Notes under the pieces: model-generated
Databases searched by the model: none
Told to the model about the DNA's origin: nothing
Seen by the model: the letters and a program-made list of their open reading frames with translations, nothing else
From: a virus
Lineage: Duplodnaviria; Caudoviricetes
Strand: one strand, 5' to 3'
IMG/VR virus record: IMGVR_UViG_3300049988_000118
Location: 1 to 64,000 of that record
Length of the DNA stretch: 64,000 nucleotides
In this document: one piece after another, positions 22,509 to 42,188 of the stretch
How positions within the stretch are numbered: position 1 is the first letter of the stretch
How the letters are laid out: every line of letters begins with the position of its first letter
Made by a program: the position numbers and the translations under genes

Positions 22509-22763
22509 ATGGCCGGCACTGTGAAGACGCCGGCCGAGATCCGGGCGGACAAGCTCGCCGAGATCGAGCGCATCAACCGGAACCTCACTCGGGGCATCAA
22601 GAAGGTCCGGGAAGAGGATCGCGAGATCGAGCACGTAGATCCGAAATACCTCATCCGCCGGCGCGACGAGCTTCTCGCCGAGACGGGCGGCGCCAACGAG
22701 ACCGGGCCCGAACTAACGGCCCGCGTGCGGCAGGTCCGCATGATCGGGCGAAAGGGATACTGA
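22509..22763 (+). CDS. gpW-like head-tail joining protein
   Basis: Small protein between terL and portal; GIKKVREEDREIEH pattern. Confidence 0.7.
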   Translation: MAGTVKTPAEIRADKLAEIERINRNLTRGIKKVREEDREIEHVDPKYLIRRRDELLAETGGANETGPELTARVRQVRMIGRKGY

Positions 22764-23931
22764 TGGGCCTTCTCAGCCGGATGTTCGGCGGCGCCAAGCG
22801 AGGTGCCGCGCGCGCCTTCTTCGCCCCAGGCTTCGGCTACGAGGGGGCACGCTTTTCGCGCCGGCTTCGCAGCTGGCTGCCGGAGCGCGCCAGCATCAAC
22901 GCGCTGCAGGCGCAGGGCGGCGAGCTTCTCCGCGCCCGCGCCCGCCAGCTGGTGCGCGACAACGCCCTGGCCGCGTCCGCGATCGACACGTGGGTCGGCT
23001 CCGTCGTGGGCGACGGCATCACGCCGTCTCCGACGATCGACGACAAGGCCCTGAAGACGGCCATCAAGGAGGCGTGGCTACGCTGGACCGACGAGGCCGA
23101 TGCCGACGGCCTGACGGATTTCTACGGCCTGCAGGCCCTCGTCGCCCGGTCGATGTTCACCGGTGGCGAGTGCTTCGTCCGGTTTCGGCCTCGCCGGATC
23201 GAGGACGGGTTCAGCGTTCCGCTGCAGCTTCAGATCTACGAGGCCGAGCAGCTGCCGCTGTCCTTCAACGTGCAGCGCTCGGACATCGGCAACGAGATTC
23301 GACACGGCATCGAGTTCGACCGGATCGGCCGGCGCCTCGCCTACCACTTCCTGAAGGTCCGGCCCGGCGACGGCGCCTATGCCTACGGCCTGGAGAATGG
23401 CGATCGCGTGCGCGTGGCGGCTTCCGAGGTCATGCACATCTACCGCCCCCTGGAGGCTGGACAGATCCGAGGGCAGACGCAGCTCGCCGCCGCGATGGTG
23501 CGGATGCACCTGCTCGACAGCTACGATGACGCCGAGCTCGACCGGAAGCGCGTCGCTGCGATGTTCGCAGGCTTCATCAAGAAGAACGCCATCGGCGACC
23601 CGCTCCCGGTCCCGGCCGGGTCCGACGCCTTCGGCGGTTTCGGTGGCGTGGGGGATCAGCCGCCTCCGATGGAGATCGAGCAGACCGTCGCCGACATGGA
23701 ACCGGGCACGATGAACGTGCTCAACCCCGGCGAGGAGATCACGTTCTCGAACCCGGCCGACGTCGGCGGCTCCTACGAAGCCTTCATGTATCGGAACCTG
23801 CTCGCCATCGCGGCGGGGTGTGGCGTTCCCTACGCGGCCATGACCGGCGACCCGAGCAAGGGCAACTTCTCGTCCCAGCGCAGCATCGAGCTCGAATACA
23901 AGCGCCGGGTCTCGCAGTTCCAACATCAGAC
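22763..23931 (+). pseudogene. Lambda-family portal protein, 5' part (interrupted by the satellite)
   Basis: LRARARQLVRDNALA, GECFVR, HGIEFD, QIRG, GNFSSQR motifs; the frame ends at a premature TAA (23957-23959) inside the insert. Confidence 0.95.
23922..23931 (+). repeat. attL core AACATCAGAC
   Basis: Direct repeat with 41812-41821 exactly at the portal breakpoint. Confidence 0.92.
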
Positions 23932-23967
23932 TATGTGCTTTGGGCTAAGCCCTTCGTAAATAACGAG

Positions 23968-23993
23968 AAAGCCGCTTTCGGGCGGCTTTTTCT
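23968..23993 (+). terminator. Rho-independent terminator just inside attL
   Basis: AAAGCCGC-TTTCGG-GCGGCTTT followed by TTCT. Confidence 0.75.
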
Positions 23994-24061
23994 GTGGGCG
24001 CGCGGGTGGCCTGAGAAGTCTGCCTAAGTCGTTGAAGTCCCATGAGGACCGGCGGCGCCAC

Positions 24062-24102
24062 GCGACATGCGCGCGACATTCGATGCGACAACGAACGCGA
24101 CA
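24062..24102 (+). promoter_or_regulatory. Four GCGACA repeats (candidate integrase arm or Xis sites)
   Basis: Copies at 24062, 24073, 24085 and 24097; the same hexamer occurs at 41722 and 41744 near attR. Confidence 0.55.
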
Positions 24103-24116
24103 AAATCGGAGGGCCT

Positions 24117-24329
24117 ATGTCCATGCACCCTGAGCAGGATTTGCTCTACGGCGTCCCTGCCATTGCGACTTTCCTCGGCATCCGGCCACGTCAGGCCAAG
24201 CACCGAGTTGCAACGGGCGAGATCCCCTCGTTCCGCATTGGGGAATCCATCTGCGCTCGCCGCTCAACTCTGACGGCGTGGCTTGCCGAGCGCGAGGCCG
24301 AGGCCCAGCGGAGCCGGTCCAATGCCTGA
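24117..24329 (+). CDS. AlpA/excisionase-like HTH protein
   Basis: LLYGVPAIATFLGIRPRQAKHRVATGEIPSFRIG...LTAWL; first gene inside attL. Confidence 0.8.
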   Translation: MSMHPEQDLLYGVPAIATFLGIRPRQAKHRVATGEIPSFRIGESICARRSTLTAWLAEREAEAQRSRSNA

Positions 24330-24645
24330 CATCGCCAACACCAGCCTGTCCCCGGTCACGGCCAACCCGACCGCCCACCGCAACACTGATGTCGCGCGCT
24401 TCGTCTGCCAGATCGGCGGCATCCGTCTCACGGGTGTCCGGCTGATGCGGATGCCCAACGGCGGCCACTTTGCCCAGCCGCAGTTGCGAACGAAGGGCAG
24501 GGGCACCCCGTCCGTCGGTACGACGATCACCGACCCGAACCTCATGAGCGCCATCACCTACGCGGCGCTCGCCCGCCTCTCCACGACGGACACCGACACG
24601 GCCGACGAAGGCCACAGGCACCGTGCCGTCCGCCGCCGGACTTAA
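24322..24645 (+). CDS. Hypothetical protein, weakly SpoVG-like
   Basis: GIRLTGVRLMRMPNGGHFAQP resembles the SpoVG beta strands. Confidence 0.45.
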   Translation: MPDIANTSLSPVTANPTAHRNTDVARFVCQIGGIRLTGVRLMRMPNGGHFAQPQLRTKGRGTPSVGTTITDPNLMSAITYAALARLSTTDTDTADEGHRHRAVRRRT

Positions 24646-24934
24646 CCCCGACCGCCGAGCCGATCTCGCCGACGAGATCGCCGACCTCCGGCACCGGCTG
24701 GCCTGCATCGAGGCCGAACTAGGCTTAGGCTCGCCAGGATTGGCCCAGGACGGGCGAGACCCGTTCGCCGAGGGCCATCTCACCTTGCAGCGAGCCGCGG
24801 GCGCCTGGGGCGTCACCGACGAGGCGGCGCGGAAGAGGGCGCTTCGTCTCGCATCGCTGGGGATGGCCGAGCGGCGCCGGCCCGGCGGCTGGCGGATCTC
24901 GACAGCCGGTGTACGGTTCTATCTCGGAGGGTGA
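24623..24934 (+). CDS. Hypothetical HTH protein
   Basis: LTLQRAAGAWGVTDEAARKRA HTH-like segment. Confidence 0.55.
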   Translation: MPSAAGLNPDRRADLADEIADLRHRLACIEAELGLGSPGLAQDGRDPFAEGHLTLQRAAGAWGVTDEAARKRALRLASLGMAERRRPGGWRISTAGVRFYLGG

Positions 24935-24937
24935 CCC

Positions 24938-25992: not shown

Positions 25993-26058
25993 ACTCACTC
26001 CTTCGGCGCCGGCACCCATACCGCGCTCTGCTTCCCATTCATATCGGAGCATCTCAGC

Positions 26059-26457
26059 ATGCCGAAGTCGAGACGCCGCCCGCAAGCGGCCGATTCCGCG
26101 CGCCTGCCCGTCGTCCCCGAGGACTTCGAGGCGGTGACTGAGGCGGATCGCCGGTTCTTCCTACGGTATCCGCAGCGGTCCTATCGGGTTCGGCATACAA
26201 GCCGGGCAGAGATAGACCAGGGCGCACGCGCCGGCAGTGCGTTCGAGGCGCCTTACGCCAAGTTCCGCTGGTTCACCGCGATCCGACAGGTGGCGCCGGG
26301 GTGTCGGCTGCGTGTGTATCTCCAGGCGCCCGCGCTGTGCGAGACGGACATACCGGAAGCACTGGCGGCCGATATCTACCATCGGTTCGAGGGGCAAAGC
26401 GCTCGCGACACGACAATTCTTATGATGGATGCCCTGAGAAAGGCGGGCGCCCTATGA
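26059..26457 (+). CDS. Hypothetical protein upstream of satellite primase
   Basis: 132-aa ORF, ATGA-coupled to the primase. Confidence 0.6.
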   Translation: MPKSRRRPQAADSARLPVVPEDFEAVTEADRRFFLRYPQRSYRVRHTSRAEIDQGARAGSAFEAPYAKFRWFTAIRQVAPGCRLRVYLQAPALCETDIPEALAADIYHRFEGQSARDTTILMMDALRKAGAL

Positions 26458-28751
26458 CGACCGCCGCCGCGGGTGAGCGCCCGCCGAAACCCGCCTATCA
26501 GCCCTTCACCGGCCTGCCGGACTTGCCGGCGCTGTGCGAGATGCGCGCCCGGCCTCAGTGGCTTGCCTGGGACTACGTGTGGCGCCCGGAAAAGGCGAAG
26601 TGGGACAAGCCCCCAATGAACGCCCGGACGGGCGGGGCCGGCTCGTCAACCGACGCCTCGACGTGGTCCACCTATGACCAGGCCGCGGCGCGTGCCTCTC
26701 GTGAGGGGCTGCCAGGCGTCGGCTACGTCCTGTCGCCGGAGGTCGAGGACAGCGGTGTCGACCTCGACAAGTGCCGCGATCCCGAGACGGGTATACTTCA
26801 GGCATGGGCGCAGGTGGCCGTCGATTTCGCCGAGACCTACACCGAGGTGTCGCCGTCCGGTCGCGGGCTGCGCTTCTTCGTCAAGGGGTTAGTCGACGGT
26901 CGCAAGATCGATGCGGCCCAAGTGGAGATCTACACCAAGGGCCGATACCTGACCGTCACCGGGCAGCATATCCCTGGCACGCCCACGGAGATTCGGGAGG
27001 CGCCCCGGCTCATCGCCTACCTTCAGGAGCGCGCCGACCAGTTCCGAGAGGTCGAGCGTGCCGCCGCTGATCGCGCCCGAGAGAACGAGCGCAAGAAGGC
27101 CGAGAAGCATGCCGCCCGCGAGCCCCGCCCTGAGCCGGGCCCGACAGTCAGCGAGCGGGCCTCGGCGAGCGCTCGGCAGCGTGGTCCGCGCGAGGGCGGC
27201 GACTTCTGGCGAACCGTCAACGACCGCGCCCTTGCGAACCTTGGCGCATGGGTCCCGAGCGTGTTCCCCGGCGCCCGTTGGCAGGCTGGCACAGGCGCCT
27301 ACCGCGTTGAGCAAAGCGCGCTTGGCGAGGGCTACGAGGAAGACCTGTCCCTGCACCCGGACGGCATTCGGGACTTTGGCAGCGGTGACATGGGAGACTC
27401 GCGCGACGGCGCGCGGACGCCGATCGACGTGGTGGAAGCCTACCTGCCGGCGAGCGACGCCGCGGCGGCGGCCATGTGGCTGTGCGATCGGCTCGGCATC
27501 CGGCCCGAGGACATCGGGTGGCGTGGCGGGCGTAACGAGGGTGCGGAGCGCCCGCGGTACGAGGGGCCCCAATCCGATCCGGGCCCCACCGCCGAGTCGC
27601 CGCCGGCATTCCGGGCGCGTCCGTTCGTGTGGAAGGACCCGCACACCCTGCCGATGCGCGAATGGCTTCTCGGCCGGCACCTGATCCGAAAATACACGAG
27701 CGCCACCGTCTCGCCGGGTGGCCTGGGCAAGTCGTCCATCATCATCGTGGACGCGCTGGCCCTCGTGACGGGTCGCAACCTCATCGGACACCAGCCGCAT
27801 GGACGTCACCGGGCGATGATCTGGAACGGCGAAGACCCGATGGACGAATTGCAGAAGCGCATCACGGCGGCCTGCCTCTATTTCGAGATCGACCGGACCG
27901 AGATCGAGGGGCGCTTGTTCGTCAACTCCGGACGCGACGACCCGATCACGGTGGCGAGAATGCACAGGGGTGACGTGGTGATTGCCGTGCCGGTGGTGGA
28001 CGCTCTTAAGGCGACCATCTTGGCGAACGAGATCGACGTCGTGTTCGTGGACCCGTTCGTGTCCTGCCATGAGGTGACGGAGAACGACAACAACGCCATT
28101 GATCGTGTGGCGAAGCTGTGGGGCCGGATCGCAGGCGAAACGAATTGCAGCATCGAGCTCGTCCACCATTCGCGGAAAACCGGCGGCGCCGAGATCACCG
28201 TCGAGGACGCGCGCGGCGCCGTGGCTTTGCTCGCCGCGGTTCGCTCGGCCCGGACCCTCAACGGCATGCAAAGGGACGAGGCTGAGAAGTGGGGTATTAC
28301 GGATCGCGGGCTGTATTTCCGAGTGGACAACGGCAAGGCAAATCTCGCCCCGCCGCCGTCTGAAGGCTCGGCGTGGTTCAAGAAGCAATCCGTTTCCCTC
28401 GGCAACGGCGGCAGCGTTGGGAGCATCGTGCTCGACGGTGACAGCGTTGGCGTGGTGGCAGCGTGGGAGCCGCCGAACCCAATGGATGGCGTGTCAGTCG
28501 ATGATCTGAGAAAAGCTCAGGCAGCGACAAGGGAAGGCCGCTGGCGCGAGAACTCACAGGCTCGCGACTGGATCGGCAAGCCGATCGCCTACGCCCTCAG
28601 GCTCGACGCAGACAACAAGGCCGACCGCGCCCGCATCAAAGGGATGCTCGCCGTCTGGATGAAGACTGGCATGTTCGTGGCCGTCACCGGCAAGGACGAC
28701 AAGGCGATGGACCGGACCTTCATTGAGGTTGGCGAGAGCGCAGTCGACTGA
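26454..28751 (+). CDS. Satellite primase-polymerase fused to AAA_25 (RepA/DnaB-like) helicase
   Basis: AEP motifs (DLDKC, EVSPSGRGLR, YLTVTG); Walker A SPGGLGKS, VFVDP, LVHHSRK. Confidence 0.88.
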   Translation: MTTAAAGERPPKPAYQPFTGLPDLPALCEMRARPQWLAWDYVWRPEKAKWDKPPMNARTGGAGSSTDASTWSTYDQAAARASREGLPGVGYVLSPEVEDSGVDLDKCRDPETGILQAWAQVAVDFAETYTEVSPSGRGLRFFVKGLVDGRKIDAAQVEIYTKGRYLTVTGQHIPGTPTEIREAPRLIAYLQERADQFREVERAAADRARENERKKAEKHAAREPRPEPGPTVSERASASARQRGPREGGDFWRTVNDRALANLGAWVPSVFPGARWQAGTGAYRVEQSALGEGYEEDLSLHPDGIRDFGSGDMGDSRDGARTPIDVVEAYLPASDAAAAAMWLCDRLGIRPEDIGWRGGRNEGAERPRYEGPQSDPGPTAESPPAFRARPFVWKDPHTLPMREWLLGRHLIRKYTSATVSPGGLGKSSIIIVDALALVTGRNLIGHQPHGRHRAMIWNGEDPMDELQKRITAACLYFEIDRTEIEGRLFVNSGRDDPITVARMHRGDVVIAVPVVDALKATILANEIDVVFVDPFVSCHEVTENDNNAIDRVAKLWGRIAGETNCSIELVHHSRKTGGAEITVEDARGAVALLAAVRSARTLNGMQRDEAEKWGITDRGLYFRVDNGKANLAPPPSEGSAWFKKQSVSLGNGGSVGSIVLDGDSVGVVAAWEPPNPMDGVSVDDLRKAQAATREGRWRENSQARDWIGKPIAYALRLDADNKADRARIKGMLAVWMKTGMFVAVTGKDDKAMDRTFIEVGESAVD

Positions 28752-29453: not shown

Positions 29454-29574
29454 GCACGTTCCTCGGTGGGTAGGCCCTCCGACCCCGCCCCGCATGCTGC
29501 GCCTCACTACCGCAGCGCACAATGGGTCCTCCGGAGACACCCCACCCCTCTGCGGGCAGAGTTGCTCCCGACTT
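29454..29574 (+). repeat. Satellite copy of the prophage cos region (121 bp, 100% identical to 19844-19964)
   Basis: Base-by-base identity at offset 9610; GGGTCCT at 29524-29530, dyad at 29548-29561; upstream of the satellite terS. Confidence 0.9.
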
Positions 29575-29656
29575 TCGGCTCTCTGCAAGTTTGCCAAAAA
29601 TAGGGGGGGCCGCTTCTTTTCGGTCCCTCGAAGCCTCGCTCCCGATGGAGAAACCG

Positions 29657-30175
29657 ATGAACGAGACCGCTTCGAACGCCGAGATGATGGAGCTGTTCGG
29701 GGTCTCAGACCGGACCGTCGCGAAGCACGCCGCCAGCGGGATATTCGTGCGTGTTGGCCGCGGCCAGTACGACGTGAAGGCCTCGATCCGCACCTACGCT
29801 GAGCACCTCCGCAGCGCCGCATCCGGGCGGCCCAGCACCAACGAAGAGCTGCGAGCCGAGAAGATTCGACTGACCGCCGCCCAAGCTGACCGCGCAGAGA
29901 TGGACCGGGACGCCGAGGCCGAGGTGATGGTCAACGTGAAGGAATTCGACGACGCGTGGGGCCATGAAATCGTCAAGCTTCGGCAGGGGTTTCTCGGCTT
30001 GGCAAATAAGATCGCGGAGGCTCACCCCCACTTCACGCGCCACGAGATCCACACCATCGACGAAGTGATCCGCGCGATGATGGAGCGGGTTGCCGACGAT
30101 GCCGATACACGCCTGGAAATCGCTCAGGCCAAAGAAGACAAGGGCGGAAAGTCGCGGCGCCGGTCCCGCCGCTGA
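29657..30175 (+). CDS. terS: Satellite terminase small subunit (Nu1-like)
   Basis: wHTH (MMELFGVSDRTVAKHAASG...GQYD), ELRAEKIRLTAAQADRAEM coil; C-terminus aligns with prophage TerS. Confidence 0.88.
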   Translation: MNETASNAEMMELFGVSDRTVAKHAASGIFVRVGRGQYDVKASIRTYAEHLRSAASGRPSTNEELRAEKIRLTAAQADRAEMDRDAEAEVMVNVKEFDDAWGHEIVKLRQGFLGLANKIAEAHPHFTRHEIHTIDEVIRAMMERVADDADTRLEIAQAKEDKGGKSRRRSRR

Positions 30176-30276
30176 ACGCGTAATTCGATTTAATGGTTGG
30201 TTTTGGTTGGTTTTCCCCGGTCCAAAGTTGGTTTTCTCTCGTTGAATTAGGCCCTCGTCCGCCGGACACTTCCGGC

Positions 30277-30624
30277 ATGACAACCGCCAGCTTCCCCCGC
30301 TTCAGCACAACGCTGGACCACGAGACGGCCCGCGCCGTCACCCTCGCCGCCGCCGAACGGATGCAGAGTCGCGCCGACTTCATTCGTGACGCGGTGGCCC
30401 ACGAACTGAGCGTCCGACAGGCCGCCGCCGACGCCGTGCGATCCGAGGTCGAGCGCCAGGGAGCCGCCGCCCGCCGCCTCACCGCCGCACTGGATCGGGG
30501 GCCGGGTGCAACCTCCCGTCTCACCGCCTCGCGCGTCGCCGCGCTCGCCCGGCCGGCCGCGCACACCATCCCCAACATCTCCACCCTCGACGCGGCCGAA
30601 GCCGCCGGAAAGGCATGCCCATGA
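30277..30624 (+). CDS. Ribbon-helix-helix (CopG-like) protein
   Basis: RFSTTLDHETARAVTLAAAERMQSRADFIRDAV fits the RHH pattern. Confidence 0.6.
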   Translation: MTTASFPRFSTTLDHETARAVTLAAAERMQSRADFIRDAVAHELSVRQAAADAVRSEVERQGAAARRLTAALDRGPGATSRLTASRVAALARPAAHTIPNISTLDAAEAAGKACP

Positions 30625-31706
30625 AATCGCCGACGAAGCTGCTCAAGGCCACCGCCACGGCGTTCGGCCTTGCCCGTAAGGCCACCGACGCCGAGGTCAT
30701 CGAGGCTGCAATCGCGGAGGCACGCACGGCCATTGCGGAGGGCGAGCGCGACGGGGCCGAGGCCCAAGCGCGCTACGACGAATCCCTGCTCGCCGATGAC
30801 GGCGACCCGGCCTTGATGCTCAACGCGATCCAGGCCGCCAAGATCAAGCGGGACCGCGGCGAGGCCCAGGTGGCCACCCTCACCGTGCGCCTGAACGATG
30901 TGCGGGAGGCCAGCGAGCAAGAACGCCGCGGCGCGATCTATCGGGATGCGGAGGCAAAAGCCGAAGCCGCCCGCGTTGCCCTGGTTCAGGAATACCCCGC
31001 CATCGCCCGACAGATGCATGGGCTACTCCGGCTTCTGGCCGAAGCCGAGATCAGGGTAGCGCAGGCGAACGCGGACCTACCGCACGGGGCCGCGCCCATC
31101 GCTTCGCCCGAGTGGCAGGTTCGGTATCCCGGGGCCAACCTGCCGCCGCTGCCGGCCCCAACGATGGTGAAGCTTTGGGCGCCCATGGGTGGAAGCGAGC
31201 CCGTGCCGGAGGAAGACCAGCAACGGGTTCGCCCGATGCCCGGTCGAGCGGAGTGGGTCGGCGCCCTCCGGCGTGATGACGGCTCCACGCTGGAGTGTCA
31301 TCGCCGTACCTTTCGGAAGTCGCTGGAATACGAGAAGCCCCACGGGGATTGGGGCACCAATCTGGCCGGGTCCGTGTGCCTGCCGGCCCTGTATCCCTTC
31401 ACCCCGCCCGTGTGGCCGCAGAACCTCATCAACGGCAAGACATTCGACCGATCTGCTGATGTTGCGCTGTCGACCTTGGATGATGTTGAGCCCCTGAGCG
31501 CGGCAGTCTGGCGACGAGCGGAGGCGATTTTGAAGGTCGTCACCCGCTTCCGGGAGGAGGGCCGCCCCCTCAACGTAGTGGACGACGGAGCACCGCGCGT
31601 ACCGCGCCACCAGCCTGTCACGGATCTCGCCCTTCGCCACCAGCCTGTCACGGATCTCGCCCTTTACGACGAGGATGACGGCGAAGCGGAGGGCGAGGCA
31701 GCATGA
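30621..31706 (+). CDS. Helical coiled-coil protein of unknown function
   Basis: Ala/Glu-rich heptads in the N-terminal half; coupled to its neighbours. Confidence 0.65.
   Translation: MKSPTKLLKATATAFGLARKATDAEVIEAAIAEARTAIAEGERDGAEAQARYDESLLADDGDPALMLNAIQAAKIKRDRGEAQVATLTVRLNDVREASEQERRGAIYRDAEAKAEAARVALVQEYPAIARQMHGLLRLLAEAEIRVAQANADLPHGAAPIASPEWQVRYPGANLPPLPAPTMVKLWAPMGGSEPVPEEDQQRVRPMPGRAEWVGALRRDDGSTLECHRRTFRKSLEYEKPHGDWGTNLAGSVCLPALYPFTPPVWPQNLINGKTFDRSADVALSTLDDVEPLSAAVWRRAEAILKVVTRFREEGRPLNVVDDGAPRVPRHQPVTDLALRHQPVTDLALYDEDDGEAEGEAA
31605..31664 (+). repeat. In-frame 30-bp tandem duplication (RHQPVTDLAL x2)
   Basis: CGCCACCAGCCTGTCACGGATCTCGCCCTT twice. Confidence 0.9.
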
Positions 31707-31966
31707 TGCGCGTCGTGCCGAAAGTCGATGGCGCCGAAGACGAACGGCGGGCGGCCAAGCGCCAACGGCTCACCGAAACCCTGGCCCTGCCGGAAGCGCA
31801 GGGCAGGGGCAACCTCCTCCCCTTCGCCCTGGCGTGCCGTTTCGATCTTCCCATGGCCCGCGTGAAGCAAGCCCTGGTCGACGCACCCGAGATGACCGAC
31901 CCGAACGAAGTTGCCGAGTGGGCGGAGGCATACCCCGTCCGCTCAAAACTGGAGATCGTGAAATGA
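31703..31966 (+). CDS. Hypothetical protein
   Basis: 87-aa coupled ORF. Confidence 0.55.
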   Translation: MMRVVPKVDGAEDERRAAKRQRLTETLALPEAQGRGNLLPFALACRFDLPMARVKQALVDAPEMTDPNEVAEWAEAYPVRSKLEIVK

Positions 31967-33219
31967 ACGACTACGATGGCCGCCGCCTGATCTGCGAAGG
32001 TGCCTTGGTCCTCTATGGTGACGTGGGCGAGGCCGGATGGGCGGACGTCGATGGCTTCACCGCCTCCGATGTGCTGTTCGCGCTCGCGGAGATCGGCGCA
32101 GACCGTGACGTGACGGTGCGGATCAACTCTGGCGGCGGCAATGCCTTCGAGGGCCTCGCCATCCACGCGATCCTCTCGGCGCACCGCGGCAAGATCACCA
32201 CCGTAGTCGAGGGCATCGCCGCGTCCGCCGCCTCCATCATCGCGATGGCGGGGAAGGACCGGATCGTCGCGCCCGGGTCGCTCATGATGATCCACGACCC
32301 GTCGGGCCTGACGGTCGGCACGGCGGACGATCACGACGACACCGCCGCCATGCTGCGCACCCTGTCGGATGCGCTTGCGACCGTCTACGCGACCGCCACC
32401 GGCCGAGCGAAGGCCGTCATCCTGGAGGAGATGAAGGCCGAGACGTGGCTCGACGCCGACGAATCCCTTGCCCGGCGGTACGCCACGGCGATCGGAACCG
32501 CCCCCGCCTCGACCGCCATGCTCCCGTTTCCGTTCGGAGCCTATGCGAAGGCACCCGCCCACCTCGTCGCCCTTGCGGAAACGAAGGGGTGGAGCGCCCG
32601 CCAGTTCACCGCCTCGCACGCCCTGGGCAAGTCGCGTTCCGAGCGCCACGCCGCTGCACCGCGCTCCTTCGATAAGGCGGCCACCGCGTCGGCGCCTGAC
32701 GCCATCGCCCAGACGTGCGCTCTTGCCGGGTGCCCGGAGAGGGCCGCCGAGTTCATTGCGGCTGGGGCGTCGTCGGCCGACGTAGCGAAGCAGCTGCTAG
32801 CGGAAGCGGTGACCGGCACGGCCACCCAGGGCGCGAGCCAGAACCGTCTGTCTCGCGCCGATTCGGCGTCGGTCGCGACCCTGTGTCTCGACGCGAGCAT
32901 TCCCGAGATGACGCCGACCATCCTCGCCCGAGCCACCACCGTGGATCAGGCCAAGGCGCTGATCCAGACCGGCACCGAAATGAAGGACGTCGTGACCCTG
33001 GCGCGCCGGCACTGCCCGAGCGTGCCCGAGGATTTGGCGGTCACAGCGTTCGCCGCCGGAAAGACGGTCAAGCAGGTCCGCGACGAGGCCGTGAACCTGA
33101 TGGCGGAAGAGGGCGACCGAACCGAAGTCCAGGGGAGCCGCCACCCCGCCGCGATCAATTCCGGCCCCGGGGCGGCGAAGCGGAACATGCTGGCCCAACT
33201 CGCGCGGGCCACCCGCTGA
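31963..33219 (+). CDS. Satellite ClpP-type head maturation protease fused to scaffold domain
   Basis: RINSGGG, GIAASAASIIAMAG (Ser), MIHDP (His), ETW; paralog of 42203..43411. Confidence 0.9.
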   Translation: MNDYDGRRLICEGALVLYGDVGEAGWADVDGFTASDVLFALAEIGADRDVTVRINSGGGNAFEGLAIHAILSAHRGKITTVVEGIAASAASIIAMAGKDRIVAPGSLMMIHDPSGLTVGTADDHDDTAAMLRTLSDALATVYATATGRAKAVILEEMKAETWLDADESLARRYATAIGTAPASTAMLPFPFGAYAKAPAHLVALAETKGWSARQFTASHALGKSRSERHAAAPRSFDKAATASAPDAIAQTCALAGCPERAAEFIAAGASSADVAKQLLAEAVTGTATQGASQNRLSRADSASVATLCLDASIPEMTPTILARATTVDQAKALIQTGTEMKDVVTLARRHCPSVPEDLAVTAFAAGKTVKQVRDEAVNLMAEEGDRTEVQGSRHPAAINSGPGAAKRNMLAQLARATR

Positions 33220-33413: not shown

Positions 33414-33851
33414 ATGCCCAAAAGCTCCACTCGGAAGCGCGCCCCTGCCGCGCGGTCCCCCGCCCCGGACCTCCCGCCGCCGCGCTTCGTCATGCCGGTG
33501 CCGGATCATACCGTTCCGCTGATCCACCCGGTCGAGTACGCCGGCCGAACCTTCGCCAGCATCACCCGTCGACGCCCGTCTAGCGCCGTGCTGGGCCGGT
33601 GGTTCGAGCAGTTCACCGAGGGCGCGGCGGTCCCGGGCGACACGAATCTCAACGTGCCGATTTTCGTCGACGAGGCCGGCGACCTCGTACCGGATGCGGT
33701 GCTCGGCTTTCTCGACGACGATGACCGGCAGGTCGTGTTCGAGGATGCTGACCGTTTTTTTCCCAAGCGGCTCGCGGTTGCCCTGGAAGCTCTGACGCAG
33801 GACTCAGCCCCTTCGTCTGGCGAACCTGCCGAGCCGACATCATCCGCTTGA
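33414..33851 (+). CDS. Satellite tail assembly chaperone (TAC)
   Basis: Aligns with prophage TAC (L..P.E..G......RR; PIF.D..G..PD.....LDDDD; F.P.R); lies directly before a TMP. Confidence 0.8.
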   Translation: MPKSSTRKRAPAARSPAPDLPPPRFVMPVPDHTVPLIHPVEYAGRTFASITRRRPSSAVLGRWFEQFTEGAAVPGDTNLNVPIFVDEAGDLVPDAVLGFLDDDDRQVVFEDADRFFPKRLAVALEALTQDSAPSSGEPAEPTSSA

Positions 33852-33943
33852 TAGGGGGCTCGCGGGCTGAGCTCGACGCCATGACCTGGGGCGAGTTCAC
33901 CCGCGAGTGGTTCGAAGCCAAACGCGTTTCTGAGGGCCGCTGA
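33755..33943 (+). other. -1 programmed frameshift (T TTT TTT) and gpE'/gpT-like extension of satellite TAC
   Basis: The -1 frame is open from the slippery site to TGA 33941-33943 and encodes RADIIRLIGGSRAELDAMTWGEFTREW. Confidence 0.8.
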
Positions 33944-33944: not shown

Positions 33945-36635
33945 ATGTCGACACGCACCGCAACCCTGATCGCCAACTTGGTCGATCAGGTCTCAGGTCC
34001 GGCCAAGGGCATGGCCGGCGCCCTGAAAAGCACCGCATCCGCCCTCGATGCACTGAAGGCCAAGGCCGGCAAGATCGACGCCTTCAAGCAGGCGAGCAAG
34101 TCGCTGGACGACGCCGCGCAGAAGTTCAGGCTGGCGCAGCAGAACGTGCGCAAGATCAAGGCCGAGATGGAGGCCGGCGGCGACGGCGCCAAAAAGCTCG
34201 GGAGCGCGCTGAAGGGCGCCGAGCGCAACGCCGATGCGGCGCGGGCCGCGTTCAAGAATCAGGGGCAGGAGGTCCGCGCGTTGCGCACCGCCCTGGAGCA
34301 GGCCGGCGTGCCGCTCAACGCGCTCGCCGCGCACGAGCGCCAGTTGCAGACCCAGATCAACCACACCACCGAGGCGCTCAAGCGACGGAAGAAGGCGCTT
34401 GCGGATGTTGGCGCCGGGGCGCCGGCGAGCCGGATGGGGCCAGCCGCAGGCGGGCACGGGCCTCAAGCAGGGCGCGGGGGCGGTGGCACGGGCGCCGCCG
34501 GGAGCGCCGTAGTGGGCGCCGGCGTGGCGCGCTTCGGCGTGGCAGCGGCCGGAATCGGTGGGGGTGCCTACATCATCGGCGATCAGATCCGCCGGGCTGC
34601 GAAGTCGTCGATAGATTTCGAGCGCAGCATGATCGAGGTCGGCAAGGCCACCGACGCATCAGGGGCCGATCTCGAAAAATACTCCGAGGGCATCCTGGCG
34701 CTGGCCCGCGCCACCGGCAAGACGAAGGAAGACCTCGCCTCGATGCTCTCCTCGGCGGGCTTTGCCGGCCGCCCGAAGGAGGAGCTAATGAACTTCACCG
34801 AGTACGCGGCGAAAGCGACCGTGGCTTGGGGCACGAGCGCCGAAGACACCGGCCAGGCGTTGGCCGAGATCGGCAACATCTACGACGCGAATCAGAAGCG
34901 CATCGAGGAGATCGGCGACGCGATCAACACGATGGCGGACAGCTCGGCATCGAAGGAATCCGACCTACTCGACTTCATGCGTCGGGCGGGTGCCTCGTCG
35001 AAGCAGGCCGGCATCTCAGCCGAGCATATGCTGGCGTTCGGCGCCTCGATGAAGGAAGTGGGCGTCCGGACCGACGTGGCCGCCACCGGCTTCGAGGCAC
35101 TCCTGAACGTGATGAAGCTCGGCGAGGAGTTTTCGAAGAAAGCAGGCGAAGGTCTGAAGGATCTCGGCGTCAACTCCACCAAGATGCGCAAGGCGTTCGT
35201 CGCCAAGCCGGTCGAGACGATGCTTGGCCTGCTGGAAAAGATCAACAAGGTCGCGGACCCGCTCAAGAAAGCGGAGATTATGACCAACCTTTTTGGCAAG
35301 GAATATCAGGACGACATCGCCAAGATGCTCAACGCCTTGCCGAAGGTGAACAAGTACATCGGCATCATGAGCGATCAGGCGAAGATTGCCGCCGGTGGCG
35401 TCCGGTTCCAGTTCGGTCAGAACCTCGACAAGGACGTGTCGAAGATCGACCGGGCCACGCAATCCATCGACGTTCTCTACAAGCGCATCGGCGACCCGAT
35501 CAAGATCCAGATCGGCGGCATCTCCGAGCAGGTCAATACGCTCGTCGACAGCCTGGAAAAGGGCGACACGATCCTTCAGCGCCTGGTGAAGCGCCTCAAC
35601 GGCGGCGAAGCTGGCAAGCCGATCGAGCTGCCCGAAATGAATGGCGAAGGCGGCCTGGAAAAATGGTTCGAGGAAAAGCTGCCCTGGCTGAGCGGCAAGA
35701 AGTGGAACGACGAGGTCGACAAGCGGATCGGCAAGACCGGCGCTGACACGGACCGGATGAACCGCGAGGACGCCGACGGGCGGCGCGCCGCGGCCGAGCG
35801 GGAGGTGCTCGACCGCCCGGCCGACATCGAGACGAAGATCCAGCGCCAGCGCCGCGCACAGGATCAGGCCCGGCGGGAAGCGGTCGGGGCTACGGGGATG
35901 CGGCGCTCGCTGGCGGTGGAGCAGATCGGCAAGTCCGACGCCGAGGTGAAGCGCTTGGAGGGCGAGCTTGCCAAGGCTTGGGAGGCGATCGGAGCCCTTC
36001 GCGCTCAGCACAAGCGGGACAAGGGGGCGTTCAGCGTCGACGGTCCGGCTGCGAAGGACGTGGAGACCATCGGCCCGGGCCGCTTCGGGCTTGGCCTACA
36101 CGGCACGGACGTGCTGCCCTCGCGCCGGGTGCCGCTACCGCCGCCGCGACCCGCAGGGCTGACGCCCGGCGCAGAAATCACCATGCCGGAGATCAAGGTC
36201 GAGGTGGACACCTCCGGCTTCGATGAGGCCAGCCGCAAGGCCGATGAACTCGGTGCGCGGACCATCGCGCCGAAGGGCGACGGCGCCGGCTTGGCCCCCA
36301 TCGGGACAGCGGCCGACGAGGCCAAGGCGAAGCTCTCTGAAATCAATGCCACCACCGTCACACCGAAGGGAGATGCCGCAGGGCTCGCGCCGCTCGGGAC
36401 GGCCGCCGACGAAGCCAAGGCAAAGCTTTCGGCCCTCGCCGGGGTGAGCGTCGCGCCGACCGTCGACGCCTCATCCATCGCGGCGGCAGAAACCGCAGTA
36501 GATCGCCTCCTGGCGAAAATCGCCCGGGTCGGCCCAGCCCTGAAAGGCGCCAACGGGGCTGTTGCCTCGGGTGTCGTCCGTTCCGGCAACGTCGCCCAGC
36601 GCCTCCAGAACACTTTCACCGACAAGGGGATGTGA
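33945..36635 (+). CDS. Satellite tail tape measure protein (TP901-type core)
   Basis: AAKSSIDFERSMIEVGK...LALARATG core; N- and C-termini match the prophage TMP. Confidence 0.9.
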   Translation: MSTRTATLIANLVDQVSGPAKGMAGALKSTASALDALKAKAGKIDAFKQASKSLDDAAQKFRLAQQNVRKIKAEMEAGGDGAKKLGSALKGAERNADAARAAFKNQGQEVRALRTALEQAGVPLNALAAHERQLQTQINHTTEALKRRKKALADVGAGAPASRMGPAAGGHGPQAGRGGGGTGAAGSAVVGAGVARFGVAAAGIGGGAYIIGDQIRRAAKSSIDFERSMIEVGKATDASGADLEKYSEGILALARATGKTKEDLASMLSSAGFAGRPKEELMNFTEYAAKATVAWGTSAEDTGQALAEIGNIYDANQKRIEEIGDAINTMADSSASKESDLLDFMRRAGASSKQAGISAEHMLAFGASMKEVGVRTDVAATGFEALLNVMKLGEEFSKKAGEGLKDLGVNSTKMRKAFVAKPVETMLGLLEKINKVADPLKKAEIMTNLFGKEYQDDIAKMLNALPKVNKYIGIMSDQAKIAAGGVRFQFGQNLDKDVSKIDRATQSIDVLYKRIGDPIKIQIGGISEQVNTLVDSLEKGDTILQRLVKRLNGGEAGKPIELPEMNGEGGLEKWFEEKLPWLSGKKWNDEVDKRIGKTGADTDRMNREDADGRRAAAEREVLDRPADIETKIQRQRRAQDQARREAVGATGMRRSLAVEQIGKSDAEVKRLEGELAKAWEAIGALRAQHKRDKGAFSVDGPAAKDVETIGPGRFGLGLHGTDVLPSRRVPLPPPRPAGLTPGAEITMPEIKVEVDTSGFDEASRKADELGARTIAPKGDGAGLAPIGTAADEAKAKLSEINATTVTPKGDAAGLAPLGTAADEAKAKLSALAGVSVAPTVDASSIAAAETAVDRLLAKIARVGPALKGANGAVASGVVRSGNVAQRLQNTFTDKGM

Positions 36636-39593: not shown

Positions 39594-39748
39594 CCCCCGG
39601 CCCGGCCGCCCGCACGGACGCCTCAGATCTGAGGGCGCGGTGCCGTACCGCGCCAATCCGGAGCCCGGCCGGGCCTCACGAACGCCGCTCGCGCAATCCC
39701 GCGCGGGCGGCATTCGCCGTACCGCACGGCGCAATTCGTGAGGATGCC

Positions 39749-40537
39749 ATGACCACGACACCCACGGTCCACATCACCGACGGCAAACCCATGGCGGACA
39801 GCCGTGAGATCGCCGCCACTTTCGGCCGGCAGCACAAAGACGTGCTCCGAGCCTATCGAGAGCTCGCATGCTCCGCGGATTTCAGGCAGCGCAATTTTGC
39901 GCCGTTTCATTCCAAGGACTTAAGCGGGTCCACCCTCTCCCACGTCCTGATGACCAAGAACGGGTTCGCCTTCCTCGTCCTCGGCTTCACCGGCGCGCCG
40001 GCCGCCGTCTTCAAGGAGGCGTACATCGAGCGGTTCGACGCGATGGAGGAGGCGCTACGGGGCAAGGCGATCCTGGCCGTTCCGACCACCTTCGCCGAGG
40101 CCCTACAGCTTGCCGCCGACAACCAACGGCAGGTTGAAGCGCAGGCCGCACAGATCGCCGTCCTGGCCCCACGCAGCGAGGCCCTGGCGACCATCGCCGA
40201 CGGGGAGGGGACGTTCTGCATCCGCGACGCGGCCAAGATGCTTCAGGTCACGGAAAGCGGCCTGACGGCCTACCTGTCGGGCAACGACTGGATCTATCGA
40301 CGCGAGCCCGGCGGGCCATGGGTGGCGACCGCCCGGCGGTTCGGACAGGGCTGGATCACCACGAAGGTGATTCCGGTCGAGGTCGGCAACGGCAAGGTCT
40401 GGAACAAGCCGCAGGCCCGCATCACGAGCGCCGGCTTGACGGTCCTGGCGATGCGCTTGGGCAAGCCCGTGCCGGCGGGCCTCGCAGCATCGGCCCCGCT
40501 CATCGAACACGCGGCTCGGCCGCAGGGAGGACACTGA
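39749..40537 (+). CDS. rha: Rha-family regulator fused to antirepressor KilAC/ANT domain
   Basis: DSREIAATFGRQHKDVLR, MTKNGFAFLVLGFTG, YIERFDAME; C-terminal FCIRDAAKMLQ...WIYRR. Confidence 0.88.
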   Translation: MTTTPTVHITDGKPMADSREIAATFGRQHKDVLRAYRELACSADFRQRNFAPFHSKDLSGSTLSHVLMTKNGFAFLVLGFTGAPAAVFKEAYIERFDAMEEALRGKAILAVPTTFAEALQLAADNQRQVEAQAAQIAVLAPRSEALATIADGEGTFCIRDAAKMLQVTESGLTAYLSGNDWIYRREPGGPWVATARRFGQGWITTKVIPVEVGNGKVWNKPQARITSAGLTVLAMRLGKPVPAGLAASAPLIEHAARPQGGH

Positions 40538-40538
40538 G

Positions 40539-41741
40539 ATGGCGAGCGTCAGGAAGCTCAAGAAGGATGACCCCGCGTCTCCATGGATCGTTGAATACAC
40601 GGACCCGTCGACGGGCAAGCGGGTGCGCAAGACCCCTAAGTCGGGACTGAAAAAGGACGCCGATGCCCTGCGTCGGAAGATCGAGGCGGAGATCGATGGA
40701 GGCATTCACACCGCCCCTTCGACCTCGCCCACGATCGCTGACCTGGGCGACACCTTCGTTCGGAACGCGGCGGAGCGCCTATCGGACGGCCGGATCGGGC
40801 GAAGCCGTTATGCCATCATCGTCTACACGGTGGAGAATTGCCTAAAACCGCACCTTGGTCGCATGAAGCTTTGTGGCCTGAAGCGCGAGGACGTGGAGGG
40901 CTGGTATAACTGGCTGCGCAAGGAAAAGAAGCTTGCCCCGGTCACGTCGAAAGGGCGGGTCATCATTTTCCAGATGATCGAGGACTTTGCGGTCCGCCGG
41001 TCATGGACGAAGCTGACGCCGGTGCGCGACTACCTCAAGGATCTCACCGGCATCCGGCAATCACGTGTGCGGACCTTCAGCGCGGAGCAGGCCGCGCAGG
41101 TGCTCGCGACTGCCGCCCATCGAGCCCCCGGCTTCAAGCTGCGGGCGCACGCCTACACCGAATGCATGGTTAACCTCGCGGCTTGCTGTGGCCTCCGGTA
41201 CGGGGAGATCCTGGGATTGTCCCTCGATGACGTGTTCTTCGATGACCGGCGCCTCTACATCCGGCACAGCCTCACGGACTGGGACGAGTTAAAGGGGCCG
41301 AAGACAGTCGCCGGCGTCCGCAACATTCCTTTGCCGCAGCACGTCGCTGACATGCTCACGGCCTGGATCGCCAACGGCTACGTGGCGAACGAGCGCCGGT
41401 TGCTGTTCCGGACATCATCGGGCGGCATCATCAGTGCCGCGAGCTTCCACAAGGCGACGTGGGGGCCGTTGCTGATCCGTGCAGGGCTCGGCGAAGGGAA
41501 GCGTTTCCACTTCCACGCCCTGCGCCATTTCGCGTCGAGCTGGATGATCGCGAACGGCCTGCCCGTGACCGACGTGGCGCGCCTCATGGGGCACAGCCAT
41601 TTCGACACGACGCTCCAGGTCTACGCGCACCCGGTCATCGCGAACCACCGGCACCAGGAGGCTTTCGACCGGATGGCGAGCAATCTGAAGCTGGAATTGC
41701 CTGCGCCAGGGGAGACCTCGCGCGACATGGCGCCGGCCTGA
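40539..41741 (+). CDS. int: Tyrosine recombinase/integrase of the satellite
   Basis: Catalytic residues GLRYGE (R), GPKT (K), HALRH, MGH, QVYAH (Y); ends 70 bp from attR. Confidence 0.95.
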   Translation: MASVRKLKKDDPASPWIVEYTDPSTGKRVRKTPKSGLKKDADALRRKIEAEIDGGIHTAPSTSPTIADLGDTFVRNAAERLSDGRIGRSRYAIIVYTVENCLKPHLGRMKLCGLKREDVEGWYNWLRKEKKLAPVTSKGRVIIFQMIEDFAVRRSWTKLTPVRDYLKDLTGIRQSRVRTFSAEQAAQVLATAAHRAPGFKLRAHAYTECMVNLAACCGLRYGEILGLSLDDVFFDDRRLYIRHSLTDWDELKGPKTVAGVRNIPLPQHVADMLTAWIANGYVANERRLLFRTSSGGIISAASFHKATWGPLLIRAGLGEGKRFHFHALRHFASSWMIANGLPVTDVARLMGHSHFDTTLQVYAHPVIANHRHQEAFDRMASNLKLELPAPGETSRDMAPA

Positions 41742-41811
41742 ACGCGACATAAATGCGGATGCGGCTGGACGCATCCAGCGTTTTCAATGACTTAGCACAT
41801 GGGTAAGAGTT

Positions 41812-41821
41812 AACATCAGAC
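41812..41821 (+). repeat. attR core AACATCAGAC
   Basis: Direct repeat with 23922-23931. Confidence 0.92.
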
Positions 41822-42188
41822 GCTCGTGTTCCAACTGTGCCGGCCGGTCTGGGCGCGCTGGATCGCGACCGCCGCGCTTGCCGGCTCCATCCCGGGGCTG
41901 ACGCCGGCGACCTTCGCCCGCAATCGCGCGGCGCTTTCGACGGTGAAGTGGCAGCCCCCGAAGTGGGACTGGGTCGATCCGCTAAAAGACCTCAAGGCCG
42001 ACGAGCTCGCGATCAAGATGGGCATCCTGCCCAGGTCGGACGCGATCGAGGCCCGCGGCGGCGACGCCGAAGAGGTCGATGCGCGGCGCAAGGAAGACCA
42101 GGACCGCGCCAACAGCCTCGAGCTTCGGCTCGACGGCGGCACGGTCGACGATCCGAACCCGGTCACCGACGCCGCTGACGCGGCCTGA
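41822..42188 (+). pseudogene. Portal protein, 3' part
   Basis: LVFQLCRPVWARW...WQPPKWDWVDPLKD..AD...IKMGILPRSD is a lambda-portal C-terminus, in frame with the 5' part after excision. Confidence 0.95.

What the first reader, a model, noticed from the sequence alone, without database searches (positions are those of the whole stretch)
22763..42188. Satellite integrates inside the helper portal gene; excision restores the frame exactly
Seen: the portal reads ...RRVSQFQHQT at AACATCAGAC (23922-23931) and resumes LVFQLCRPVW after the second AACATCAGAC (41812-41821). Joining 22763-23931 to 41822-42188 gives 1536 nt, a 511-aa portal with no frameshift. All other helper late genes look intact. Inference: the helper cannot build heads until the satellite excises, so every productive helper cycle is coupled to satellite excision. 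This resembles regulatory-switch prophages (Listeria comK, SpyCI in the mutL operon), but here the target is a phage essential gene. The attB lies in a phage gene rather than a tRNA, so the element may also disarm related prophages.
Basis: partly seen in the sequence, partly recalled or inferred. Interest (0 to 1): 0.92.

Follow-up and report, generated by a model that had tools for sequence, protein, structure and literature searches.

The report
Phage satellite embedded in helper's portal gene
A 17.9-kb phage parasite (satellite) sits exactly inside the portal gene of the prophage it exploits, so that gene is whole only after the satellite cuts itself out; this arrangement was published in 2023 for enterobacteria, and here an unrelated integrase lineage that is widespread in Alphaproteobacteria produces it at a new site.

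Summary
AACATCAGAC occurs only twice in the window, at 23922-23931 and 41812-41821. These two copies flank a 17,890-bp insert that splits a lambda-family portal gene. Removing the insert gives a 511-aa frame. That frame is gapless and 505/511 identical to a natural, uninterrupted portal in a related phage contig (L063), which serves as an empty site.

The insert has satellite gene content:
- a tyrosine integrase next to attR and a weak HTH_17 excisionase candidate next to attL;
- a primase-helicase;
- its own small terminase (TerS) behind a 121-bp exact copy of the helper's putative cos region;
- a protease-scaffold paralogue;
- a tail chaperone plus tape-measure pair, and a Rha/ANT protein.

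It has no capsid, portal, large terminase (TerL), tail-structure or lysis genes.

This is not a one-off. In 41 of 61 informative loci carrying related integrases, a head or packaging gene, mostly 5'-truncated, starts within 350 nt of int. Apart from the window itself, split halves were found on one contig in six cases.

The principle is already published as helper-embedded PICIs (Tommasini et al. 2023, Enterobacteriaceae only). This integrase is only 20% identical to theirs, and the end layout and arm motif differ. Earlier reports of this scan reached the same reading on Azospirillum and Brucella DNA. Excision itself was not tested.

The parts
17596..18399 (+). Helper NusG-like putative late antiterminator
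   Evidence: PHROG 6386 'transcription antiterminator'; Pfam NusG 1.7e-07.
19844..19964 (+). Helper putative cos block just upstream of TerS
   Evidence: 121 bp identical to satellite 29454-29574. About 90% conserved in the related helper L063. Contains the dyad CTCTGC-GG-GCAGAG. The cos function is inferred from its position.
19884..20621 (+). Helper small terminase (true start probably near 20013)
   Evidence: PHROG 57 terminase small subunit, 1.4e-20.
20605..22506 (+). Helper large terminase (lambda gpA type), intact
   Evidence: GpA_ATPase and GpA_nuclease, about 1e-73 each.
22763..23931 (+). Helper portal gene, N part (389 codons plus 2 nt); in the integrated state it ends in 9 satellite-encoded codons at 23959
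   Evidence: Phage_portal_2 1e-109; translation.
23922..23931 (+). attL core copy AACATCAGAC
23965..23995 (.). Bidirectional intrinsic-terminator hairpin just inside the left end of the satellite
   Evidence: Equivalent hairpin plus T run inside attL of L022, L010, L036 and L063.
24042..24329 (+). Candidate excisionase (HTH_17)
   Evidence: HTH_17 over the full profile, E 1.4e-4, 22.4 bits, below the 27-bit cut-off. 81% identical DNA in the L063 satellite.
24062..24102 (+). Four co-oriented GCGACA repeats, 11-12 bp apart (putative arm-type integrase sites, P' arm)
   Evidence: background is 0.05 copies per 100 nt.
26301..28751 (+). Satellite primase-helicase
   Evidence: AAA_25 4.7e-32; PHROG primase and primase/helicase families.
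29454..29574 (+). Satellite copy of the helper's putative cos block
   Evidence: 121-bp exact identity to 19844-19964.
29522..30175 (+). Satellite small terminase
   Evidence: PHROG 57, 2.4e-25. Only the C-terminal 60 aa are similar to the helper TerS, at 37%.
30193..30624 (+). Ribbon-helix-helix protein
   Evidence: RHH_1, 2e-4.
30615..31706 (+). 363-aa protein of unknown function (long helical hairpin plus a small beta domain)
   Evidence: No Pfam or PHROG match. 240 homologues, found next to primases in small elements. AF2 model pLDDT 78; no PDB match.
31675..33219 (+). Satellite head protease-scaffold paralogue (real start probably near codon 90-98)
   Evidence: CLP_protease 3.5e-27. 46% identical to helper gpC over its whole length.
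33414..33943 (+). Tail assembly chaperone with a TTTTTTT slip site at 33755-33761 and a -1 extension
   Evidence: The -1 product is homologous to the helper's extension.
33945..36635 (+). Satellite tape-measure protein (896 aa)
   Evidence: PhageMin_Tail 2.6e-31; PHROG 28, 7.5e-67. Shares only its N and C ends with the helper TMP.
39749..40537 (+). Rha / ANT (KilAC) anti-repressor-like protein
   Evidence: Phage_pRha 8e-23 and ANT 3.4e-20.
40539..41741 (+). Tyrosine integrase
   Evidence: Phage_integrase 3e-26. Catalytic R220, K252, H326, R329, H352 and Y362 are invariant in a 30-member alignment.
41722..41749 (+). Two GCGACA repeats (P arm), within the conserved ACGCGACATAAATGCGGA
41764..41779 (+). 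Terminator-like hairpin after int
41812..41821 (+). attR core copy AACATCAGAC
41820..42188 (+). Helper portal gene, C part (122 codons)
   Evidence: Translation. 122/122 identical to P0122.
42203..44847 (+). Helper head protease (gpC type), decoration protein D, major capsid protein E
   Evidence: CLP_protease, HDPD and Phage_cap_E.

Best explanation
The 17,890-bp segment 23932-41821 is a phage satellite. Its own tyrosine integrase inserted it by site-specific recombination into a conserved motif (QFQHQT|LVFQLCRPVW) of the portal gene of its helper. The helper is a temperate, Methylobacterium-type myovirus with a lambda-like head module. This makes the element a helper-embedded satellite.

Shown from the sequence:
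- Integration leaves a 398-aa truncated portal, followed by a stop codon and a terminator.
- Recombination between the two 10-bp cores would rebuild the 511-aa portal exactly and release a 17.9-kb circle.

Inferred, largely by analogy with the E. coli HE-PICI 11capE:
- After induction the composite replicates. The satellite then excises, using Int plus the HTH_17 candidate excisionase, and only then can the helper make portal and heads.
- The satellite is packaged through the copy of the helper's cos region that sits in front of its own TerS. It uses the helper's TerL, capsid and tail. It contributes its own protease-scaffold and its own tail chaperone plus tape-measure pair.
- Because its attB exists only in the helper, the satellite always resides with, and is replicated and probably transcribed in cis with, the phage it needs.

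The element belongs to a large alphaproteobacterial integrase clade whose members repeatedly target phage head and packaging genes.
For: - Repeats and frame.
- Empty site: the related helper L063 carries an uninterrupted portal 98% identical in protein, with the DNA colinear across the junction.
- Same site reused: L008 (integrase 78% identical; portal C part begins at the same codon; followed by protease, D and E). L022 in Methylobacterium sp. Leaf123 (21.3-kb insert, 11-bp repeat CACCTCGTCGT about 5 nt away, frame restored).
- Related satellites in near-identical helpers use other head genes: TerL in L009, where helper DNA is 90% identical and the portal N part is 99% identical in protein; capsid gene E in L063.
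- Clade-wide pattern: in 41 of 61 informative integrase loci a head or packaging gene, mostly 5'-truncated, starts within 350 nt of int.
- Split halves on one contig, six cases besides the window: L022, L010, L036, L028, L087, L099.
- Sister integrases share a site, while sites switch across the tree.
- attP-like architecture: GCGACA x4 and x2 flank the core, and a conserved motif follows the int stop codon in three relatives.
- Satellite gene content and shared cos block.
- Published precedent with experimental excision of an analogous element: PMC10111431.
Against: - There is no direct evidence of excision, circles or packaging for this element. Exact attP and attB junction strings were not found in viral or metagenome contigs.
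- The excisionase assignment is weak (below the Pfam cut-off).
- The cos function of the shared 121-bp block is inferred from position only.
- It is untested whether the 398-aa truncated portal is non-functional.
- No helper integrase or host flank was identified in the 74-kb record, so the state of the helper (active or decaying) is not established.
- One relative (L010) has a stop near the junction in its split TerL, so some composites may be decaying.
Confidence: 0.82

Rival explanations
1. One-off secondary-site insertion: the element normally integrates at a chromosomal site and landed in the portal gene by accident, inactivating a prophage.
For: Off-target events are documented for HE-PICI integrases (PMC10111431). 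13 of the 61 informative relatives have no recognisable phage gene after int; one (L035) is followed by an SMC_N/AAA gene.
Against: The two nearest integrases sit in the same portal codon (L008) and in TerL of a 90%-identical helper (L009). A distant one (L022) sits in the same portal motif. 41 of 61 loci abut head or packaging genes.
Confidence: 0.04
2. Fossil composite: the insertion was real, but helper and/or satellite are now defective, so nothing excises and the portal stays broken for good.
For: No helper integrase was seen in the record. The 2023 paper notes that many helpers look truncated. Relatives L010 and L099 show stops in their split target genes.
Against: The core repeats are perfect. 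The integrase ORF is intact with all catalytic residues. The helper genes scanned give full-length family matches, and ORFs across the window keep high GC3. The 121-bp block shared by helper and satellite is identical, which suggests recent exchange. The portal C part is 122/122 identical to an intact relative.
Confidence: 0.12
3. The insert is a small defective or unusual temperate phage rather than a satellite, or the contig is a chimeric assembly joined at a short repeat.
For: The insert carries several structural-type genes (TerS, protease-scaffold, tail chaperone, tape measure).
Against: No capsid, portal, TerL, sheath, tube, baseplate or lysis gene was found in 17.9 kb. It carries an exact copy of the helper's cos-like block. 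Both junctions carry the same 10-bp core and restore a frame. The same nested layout occurs in independent assemblies and isolate genomes.
Confidence: 0.02

Closest known systems
Helper-embedded PICIs (HE-PICIs; founder Eco567.11capE in E. coli NRG857c; Tommasini, Mageeney & Williams 2023, NAR Genom Bioinform, PMC10111431)
   Same: [quoted passage not shown]
- A short (about 10-bp) identity block, with no replacement sequence, so the gene is whole only after excision.
- An integrase clade whose subclades each keep one site while the clade hops among TerL, portal, protease and capsid genes, including a ClpP site near profile position 104-118 (theirs is at 110).
- Repeated co-oriented motifs at fixed distances on both sides of the attP core.
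- A primase, a Bro/ANT-type protein, captured late genes and a shared cos-like block.
   Different: - The integrase is only 20% identical to the 11capE integrase (E 0.002).
- Hosts are Alphaproteobacteria, whereas all 491 published elements are in Enterobacteriaceae.
- int lies at the downstream end next to attR, and the excisionase candidate lies at the opposite end. There is no Phage_AlpA match.
- The arm motif is GCGACA, not TGTATTGC, which is absent from the element.
- The portal site (after codon 389, at the end of the Phage_portal_2 profile) is not among their sites 21, 38, 227 and 241.
- The helper is a myovirus, and relatives also target HK97-type head modules.
- The element is larger (17.9 kb versus about 11 kb) and carries TerS and a tail chaperone plus tape-measure pair.
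- Terminators sit at both ends.
Satellite P4 and Gram-negative PICIs / cf-PICIs
   Same: Integrase, primase-helicase, an anti-repressor-type regulator, dependence on helper structural genes, packaging through the helper's cos, and genes that can remodel helper assembly.
   Different: Those elements integrate in chromosomal genes (tRNA, fis, hpt and others) and interact with the helper only in trans. None is known to carry a tail chaperone plus tape-measure module (my own knowledge, not tested).
Regulatory-switch prophages and excisable intervening elements (Listeria phi10403S in comK, SpyCIM1 in mutL, the B. subtilis skin element in sigK)
   Same: Reversible excision of an integrated element restores a split gene ('regulated gene integrity').
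   Different: There the split gene is a bacterial gene and the switch serves the cell or the phage-host pair. Here the split gene is an essential phage gene and the arrangement serves the satellite.

Membership tests
HE-PICI (Tommasini et al. 2023) | Integrated within a helper prophage late gene, flanked by a short identity block, with no replacement sequence | tested here: met
   10-bp repeats, portal split at codon 389/390, truncated product.
HE-PICI (Tommasini et al. 2023) | Key satellite genes co-oriented with the interrupted late gene | tested here: met
   int, primase, TerS, protease and TMP are all on the + strand, like the portal.
HE-PICI (Tommasini et al. 2023) | Integrase belongs to the 11capE (P4-like) integrase clade | tested here: not met
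   20% identity, E 0.002 against the 11capE integrase taken from NC_017634. As outgroup in the tree it sits on a branch of about 4 substitutions per site.
HE-PICI (Tommasini et al. 2023) | int at the upstream end, followed by alpA; zones ordered Int-Bro-Replication-Late | tested here: not met
   int is the last gene, next to attR. A weak HTH_17 gene is the first gene, next to attL. The order is xis - replication - late - Rha/ANT - int.
HE-PICI (Tommasini et al. 2023) | Doubled tgTGTATTGCa motif on both attP arms | tested here: not met
   TGTATTGC is absent from the element. A different repeated motif, GCGACA, occupies comparable positions.
Phage satellite (general) | Lacks the genes for an autonomous virion but carries integration, replication and helper-hijacking functions and a helper-compatible packaging signal | tested here: met
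   No capsid, portal, TerL, tail-structure or lysis gene was detected in the ORFs scanned across 23932-41821. A 121-bp exact copy of the block upstream of helper TerS is present. The cos activity itself was not tested.
Phage satellite (general) | Mobilised by the helper (excision, packaging, transfer) | not testable with these tools
No attP or attB junction was found in contig collections.
Alphaproteobacterial head-gene-targeting integrase clade (defined here and in earlier scan notes) | Integrase gene followed within about 350 nt by a 5'-truncated head or packaging gene | tested here: met
   41 of 61 informative loci. The window's integrase groups with L008 (portal) and L009 (TerL) at 95-100% SH-aLRT.

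The most novel reading that the evidence does not exclude
Late-gene tropism arose independently in a second, unrelated tyrosine-integrase lineage. That lineage spans many alphaproteobacterial genera and both lambda-type and HK97-type head modules. In this lineage the satellite is a terminator-insulated gate in the helper's late operon: helper head and tail genes downstream of the portal are expressed only by antiterminated read-through (via the NusG-like regulator) or after excision. This particular satellite also re-measures the helper's tail with its own chaperone plus tape-measure pair, so satellite and helper particles would differ in tail length.
Probability: 0.25. Interest if true: 0.75.

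Novelty: new variant of a known kind. Interest (0 to 1): 0.55.

Why it matters
The only published survey found helper-embedded satellites solely in Enterobacteriaceae and from a single integrase clade. A second, unrelated clade doing the same thing across Methylobacterium, Sphingomonas, Azospirillum, Brucella/Ochrobactrum, Xanthobacter and others points to convergence. If so, embedding in a helper's head genes is a general satellite strategy rather than a lineage quirk.

The data also give natural material for studying how integrases retarget. Near-identical helpers here carry related satellites in portal, TerL or capsid genes.

There is a practical consequence. Prophage and satellite finders that assume chromosomal att sites, and annotation pipelines that label such prophages 'defective' because a portal or terminase gene is split, will misread these loci.

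Tried and rejected
- Exact attP (circle) and attB (restored portal) junction strings: no match in IMG/VR or JGI metagenome contigs. This is uninformative, because only identical sequence would be found.
- A direct scan of IMG/VR with the single integrase found no close relative. The alignment-based scan did.
- Known phages: the helper and the first 8 kb of the insert have only weak, partial DNA matches in GenBank phages.
- Rfam: no RNA family in the window, so there is no P4-type C4/isrK immunity RNA.
- 363-aa ORF as a Psu/Sid-like capsid-size factor: this rested only on a 0.84 Atlas lead. The AF2 model (pLDDT 78) has no PDB match at E <= 0.001. The idea was dropped and the function left unknown.
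- Membership in the published HE-PICI clade: rejected on integrase identity, gene order and arm motif.
- L010: the split TerL does not give a clean open frame across the 11-bp repeat. This could be decay or a MAG assembly error and is left open.
- L040 (Faunimonas): the portal-C match is weak, and the N half was not found next to it. It is counted in the 41 as a probable, not a verified, portal case.


Full report
OBSERVATION

The decamer AACATCAGAC occurs exactly twice in the 64-kb window, at 23922-23931 and 41812-41821 (0.07 copies expected by chance). The ORF starting at 22763 is a lambda-family portal (Pfam Phage_portal_2, 1e-109, profile positions 2-354). It reads ...RRVSQFQHQT and then runs into nine foreign codons and a stop at 23957-23959. 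The same frame resumes at 41820 as TLVFQLCRPVW... and ends at 42188. Joining 22763-23931 to 41822-42188 gives 1536 nt and 511 codons with no internal stop.

IS IT A REAL INSERTION? THE EMPTY SITE

A search with the portal N part returned a natural 511-aa portal, P0122, at 98% identity.
- Its contig, L063, is colinear with the window on both sides of the insert. L063 1230-5267 matches window 19866-23931, and L063 5260-7283 matches window 41814-43836 at 97%. The two matches overlap by 8 bp at the core.
- The joined window protein is 505/511 identical to P0122, without gaps, and the junction peptide is identical.
- L063 reads CAGCACCAGAC at the site, two synonymous differences from the window's core.
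- The site lies in one of the most conserved motifs of this portal family, QFQHxxLVFQLCRPVW, in an alignment of 115 portals.

WHAT THE INSERT IS

The segment 23932-41821 is 17,890 bp. From left to right it encodes:
- a stop codon and a bidirectional terminator hairpin (23965-23995);
- a small HTH_17 protein (24042-24329; weak, 22.4 bits against a 27-bit cut-off), which overlaps four co-oriented GCGACA repeats spaced 11-12 bp apart;
- a primase-helicase (26301-28751);
- a 121-bp block identical to the region just upstream of the helper's small terminase (29454-29574 = 19844-19964), followed by the satellite's own small terminase (PHROG 57);
- an RHH protein;
- a 363-aa helical protein of unknown function;
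- a head protease-scaffold 46% identical to the helper's gpC over its full length;
- a tail assembly chaperone with a TTTTTTT slip site, whose -1 product is homologous to the helper's;
- an 896-aa tape-measure protein that shares only its two ends with the helper's 968-aa one;
- a low-GC stretch with an unassigned reverse-strand ORF;
- a Rha/ANT protein;
- a tyrosine integrase with all catalytic residues;
- two more GCGACA repeats, a terminator-like hairpin, and the second core.

No capsid, portal, large terminase, sheath, tube, baseplate or lysis gene was found in the insert. The surrounding phage has all of them. It also has a NusG-like putative antiterminator.

The gene content is therefore that of a satellite. 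It depends on the surrounding myovirus, which has a lambda-type head and a contractile tail. It is probably packaged from a shared cos site. That last point is inferred from position, by analogy with lambda cos and with the shared cos block reported for 11capE in PMC10111431.

IS IT A ONE-OFF?

No. The window is an IMG/VR virus record of 73,988 bp. Integrase relatives come from Alphaproteobacteria.

Closest relatives:
- The closest integrase (78% identity, L008) is followed after about 70 nt by the portal C part, starting at the same codon, and then by protease, D and E of a different phage.
- The next (66% identity, L009) is followed by the last 107 codons of TerL, then gpW and the portal, of a helper whose DNA is 90% identical to this one.
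- In L063, whose portal is intact, a satellite sharing 81% DNA identity with the left end of this one, and the same GCGACA repeats, interrupts capsid gene E after about 12 codons.

Wider survey. Scans of species-representative genomes and of IMG/VR with an integrase alignment gave 65 distinct loci. In 41 of the 61 loci with enough downstream DNA, a head or packaging gene, mostly 5'-truncated, starts within 350 nt of the int stop:

| Target gene after int | Loci |
|---|---|
| lambda-type TerL | 10 |
| lambda-type portal | 6 |
| ClpP protease or protease-capsid | 4 |
| capsid gene E | 1 |
| HK97-type portal | 7 |
| HK97-type TerL | 8 |
| major head proteins | 5 |

Seven more loci have head genes within 3 kb, and 13 are unresolved.

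Both halves of the split gene were located on one contig in six further cases:
- L022, Methylobacterium sp. Leaf123: portal, 21.3-kb insert, 11-bp repeat, frame restored.
- L036, Sphingomonas: TerL, 11 kb, 12-bp repeat, frame restored.
- L010, a MAG: TerL, 11.6 kb, 11-bp repeat, but with a stop nearby.
- L028, Brucella pituitosa: HK97-type TerL, 16.5 kb.
- L087 and L099: HK97-type portal, 16.8 kb and 10.8 kb.

In L013 (Azospirillum B506) the two TerL halves lie on two different contigs.

In an integrase tree, sister sequences share a site while sites switch across the tree. The window groups with L008 and then L009, with 95-100% SH-aLRT support. All four elements with a known left end, and L063, carry a hairpin plus T run just inside attL.

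COMPARISON WITH WHAT IS KNOWN

The arrangement is published. Tommasini, Mageeney and Williams (2023, PMC10111431) described helper-embedded PICIs:
- 491 elements at 14-15 sites in nine lambda-cognate late genes, all in Enterobacteriaceae and all from one integrase clade.
- For the founder, qPCR and read evidence showed that the composite excises and replicates, and that the satellite then excises.
- They examined top integrase hits in other Proteobacteria and saw phage surroundings only in Enterobacterales.
- A full-text search for 'helper-embedded' and 'HE-PICI' found no extension to other taxa.

I fetched the founder integrase from NC_017634. It is 20% identical to the one here (E 0.002). 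The published arm motif TGTATTGC is absent from the element. There is no AlpA match. int sits at the opposite end of the element. The portal site (after codon 389) is not among the published sites 21, 38, 227 and 241.

The element therefore works like an HE-PICI but is not a member of that family. It represents a second, alphaproteobacterial lineage with the same tropism. The parallels extend to a ClpP site near profile position 104-118 (theirs is at 110) and to repeated motifs placed on both attP arms.

Earlier follow-up reports of this scan reached the same conclusion on other DNA, for Azospirillum and Brucella/Ochrobactrum TerL cases. I treated those as leads and re-derived the pattern independently.

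MECHANISM: WHAT IS SHOWN AND WHAT IS INFERRED

Shown:
- the split gene, the repeats, the exact in-frame restoration and a natural empty site;
- reuse of the same site and of other head genes by related integrases;
- satellite gene content;
- the identical block shared with the helper upstream of TerS;
- terminators and repeated motifs at both ends.

Inferred:
- Int together with the HTH_17 protein excises the element after induction.
- The helper cannot assemble heads before that.
- The shared block is cos.
- The helper's NusG-like regulator lets late transcription pass the satellite's terminators, or, failing that, the insertion is polar on all downstream late genes until excision.
- The protease-scaffold and the chaperone plus tape-measure pair remodel the particles.

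One arithmetic note: three satellite genomes (53.7 kb) come close to the record length minus the insert (56.1 kb). That would allow multimer packaging into helper-sized heads, as is known for P4 in P2-sized heads (my own knowledge). This is speculation.

LIMITS

No read data could be consulted. No excised form was found in contig collections. The helper's own integrase and host flanks were not identified in the record. The fraction of the clade that uses non-phage sites is not settled, with 13 loci unresolved.

VERDICT

The principle is already known. What is new is the lineage, the host range, the site and the architecture: a new variant of a known kind.

Noticed in passing
L063:7240-13252: In a contig whose helper is 97% identical (DNA) to this one over portal C part to D, the portal is intact. 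A related satellite (81% identical to window 24142-24650, with the same GCGACA repeats and a terminator inside attL) interrupts capsid gene E after about 12 codons.
   Followed up: partly
L009:2022-3691: A helper 90% identical in DNA (portal N part 99% in protein) carries a satellite, with a 66%-identical integrase, in the last 107 codons of TerL rather than in the portal.
   Followed up: partly
L063:5255-5270: The empty portal site of the related helper reads CAGCACCAGAC, two synonymous changes from the window's core AACATCAGAC. This could reflect escape from integration or simple drift.
   Followed up: no
window 14615-16372 (- strand): A low-GC (0.44-0.56) two-gene cassette in the helper's early region: an HTH plus Peptidase_M78 (ImmA/IrrE-like) protein of 411 aa, and a DUF4411 protein of 171 aa. 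It looks like an acquired toxin-antitoxin or defence-type pair.
   Followed up: partly
window 33414-36635: The satellite carries a complete tail-length module: a chaperone with a conserved -1 slip site and a tape measure. Only the ends of the tape measure match the helper's; the core is different and 72 aa shorter.
   Followed up: partly
window 56998-57930 (- strand): A reverse-strand gene with a staphylococcal-nuclease (SNase) domain sits after the helper's sheath (55157-56416) and tube (56464-56997) genes, upstream of the tape measure.
   Followed up: no
L079 and L102 (IMGVR_UViG_2643221868_000001, 87,768 bp): Two integrases of this clade lie about 15 kb apart, in the same orientation, on one viral contig. 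This may be a helper carrying two embedded satellites, as reported for one enterobacterial helper.
   Followed up: no
G008:C2:772364-790169 (L028) and G013:C1:16554-34489 (L087): The inserts that split an HK97-type TerL (Brucella pituitosa) and an HK97-type portal contain a second, intact TerL or portal paralogue of their own. Some members of the clade are therefore capsid-forming satellites.
   Followed up: partly
window 37000-38200: A low-GC (0.52) stretch inside the satellite holds a 189-aa reverse-strand ORF with no family match. A 36%-identical homologue lies upstream of the integrase in L041. It may be accessory cargo.
   Followed up: no
L047:6145-7947 (record 70145-71950): A Y-family DNA polymerase (ImpB/UmuC type) is encoded near the right end of the record, beyond the endolysin. 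It may be phage cargo or host flank.
   Followed up: no
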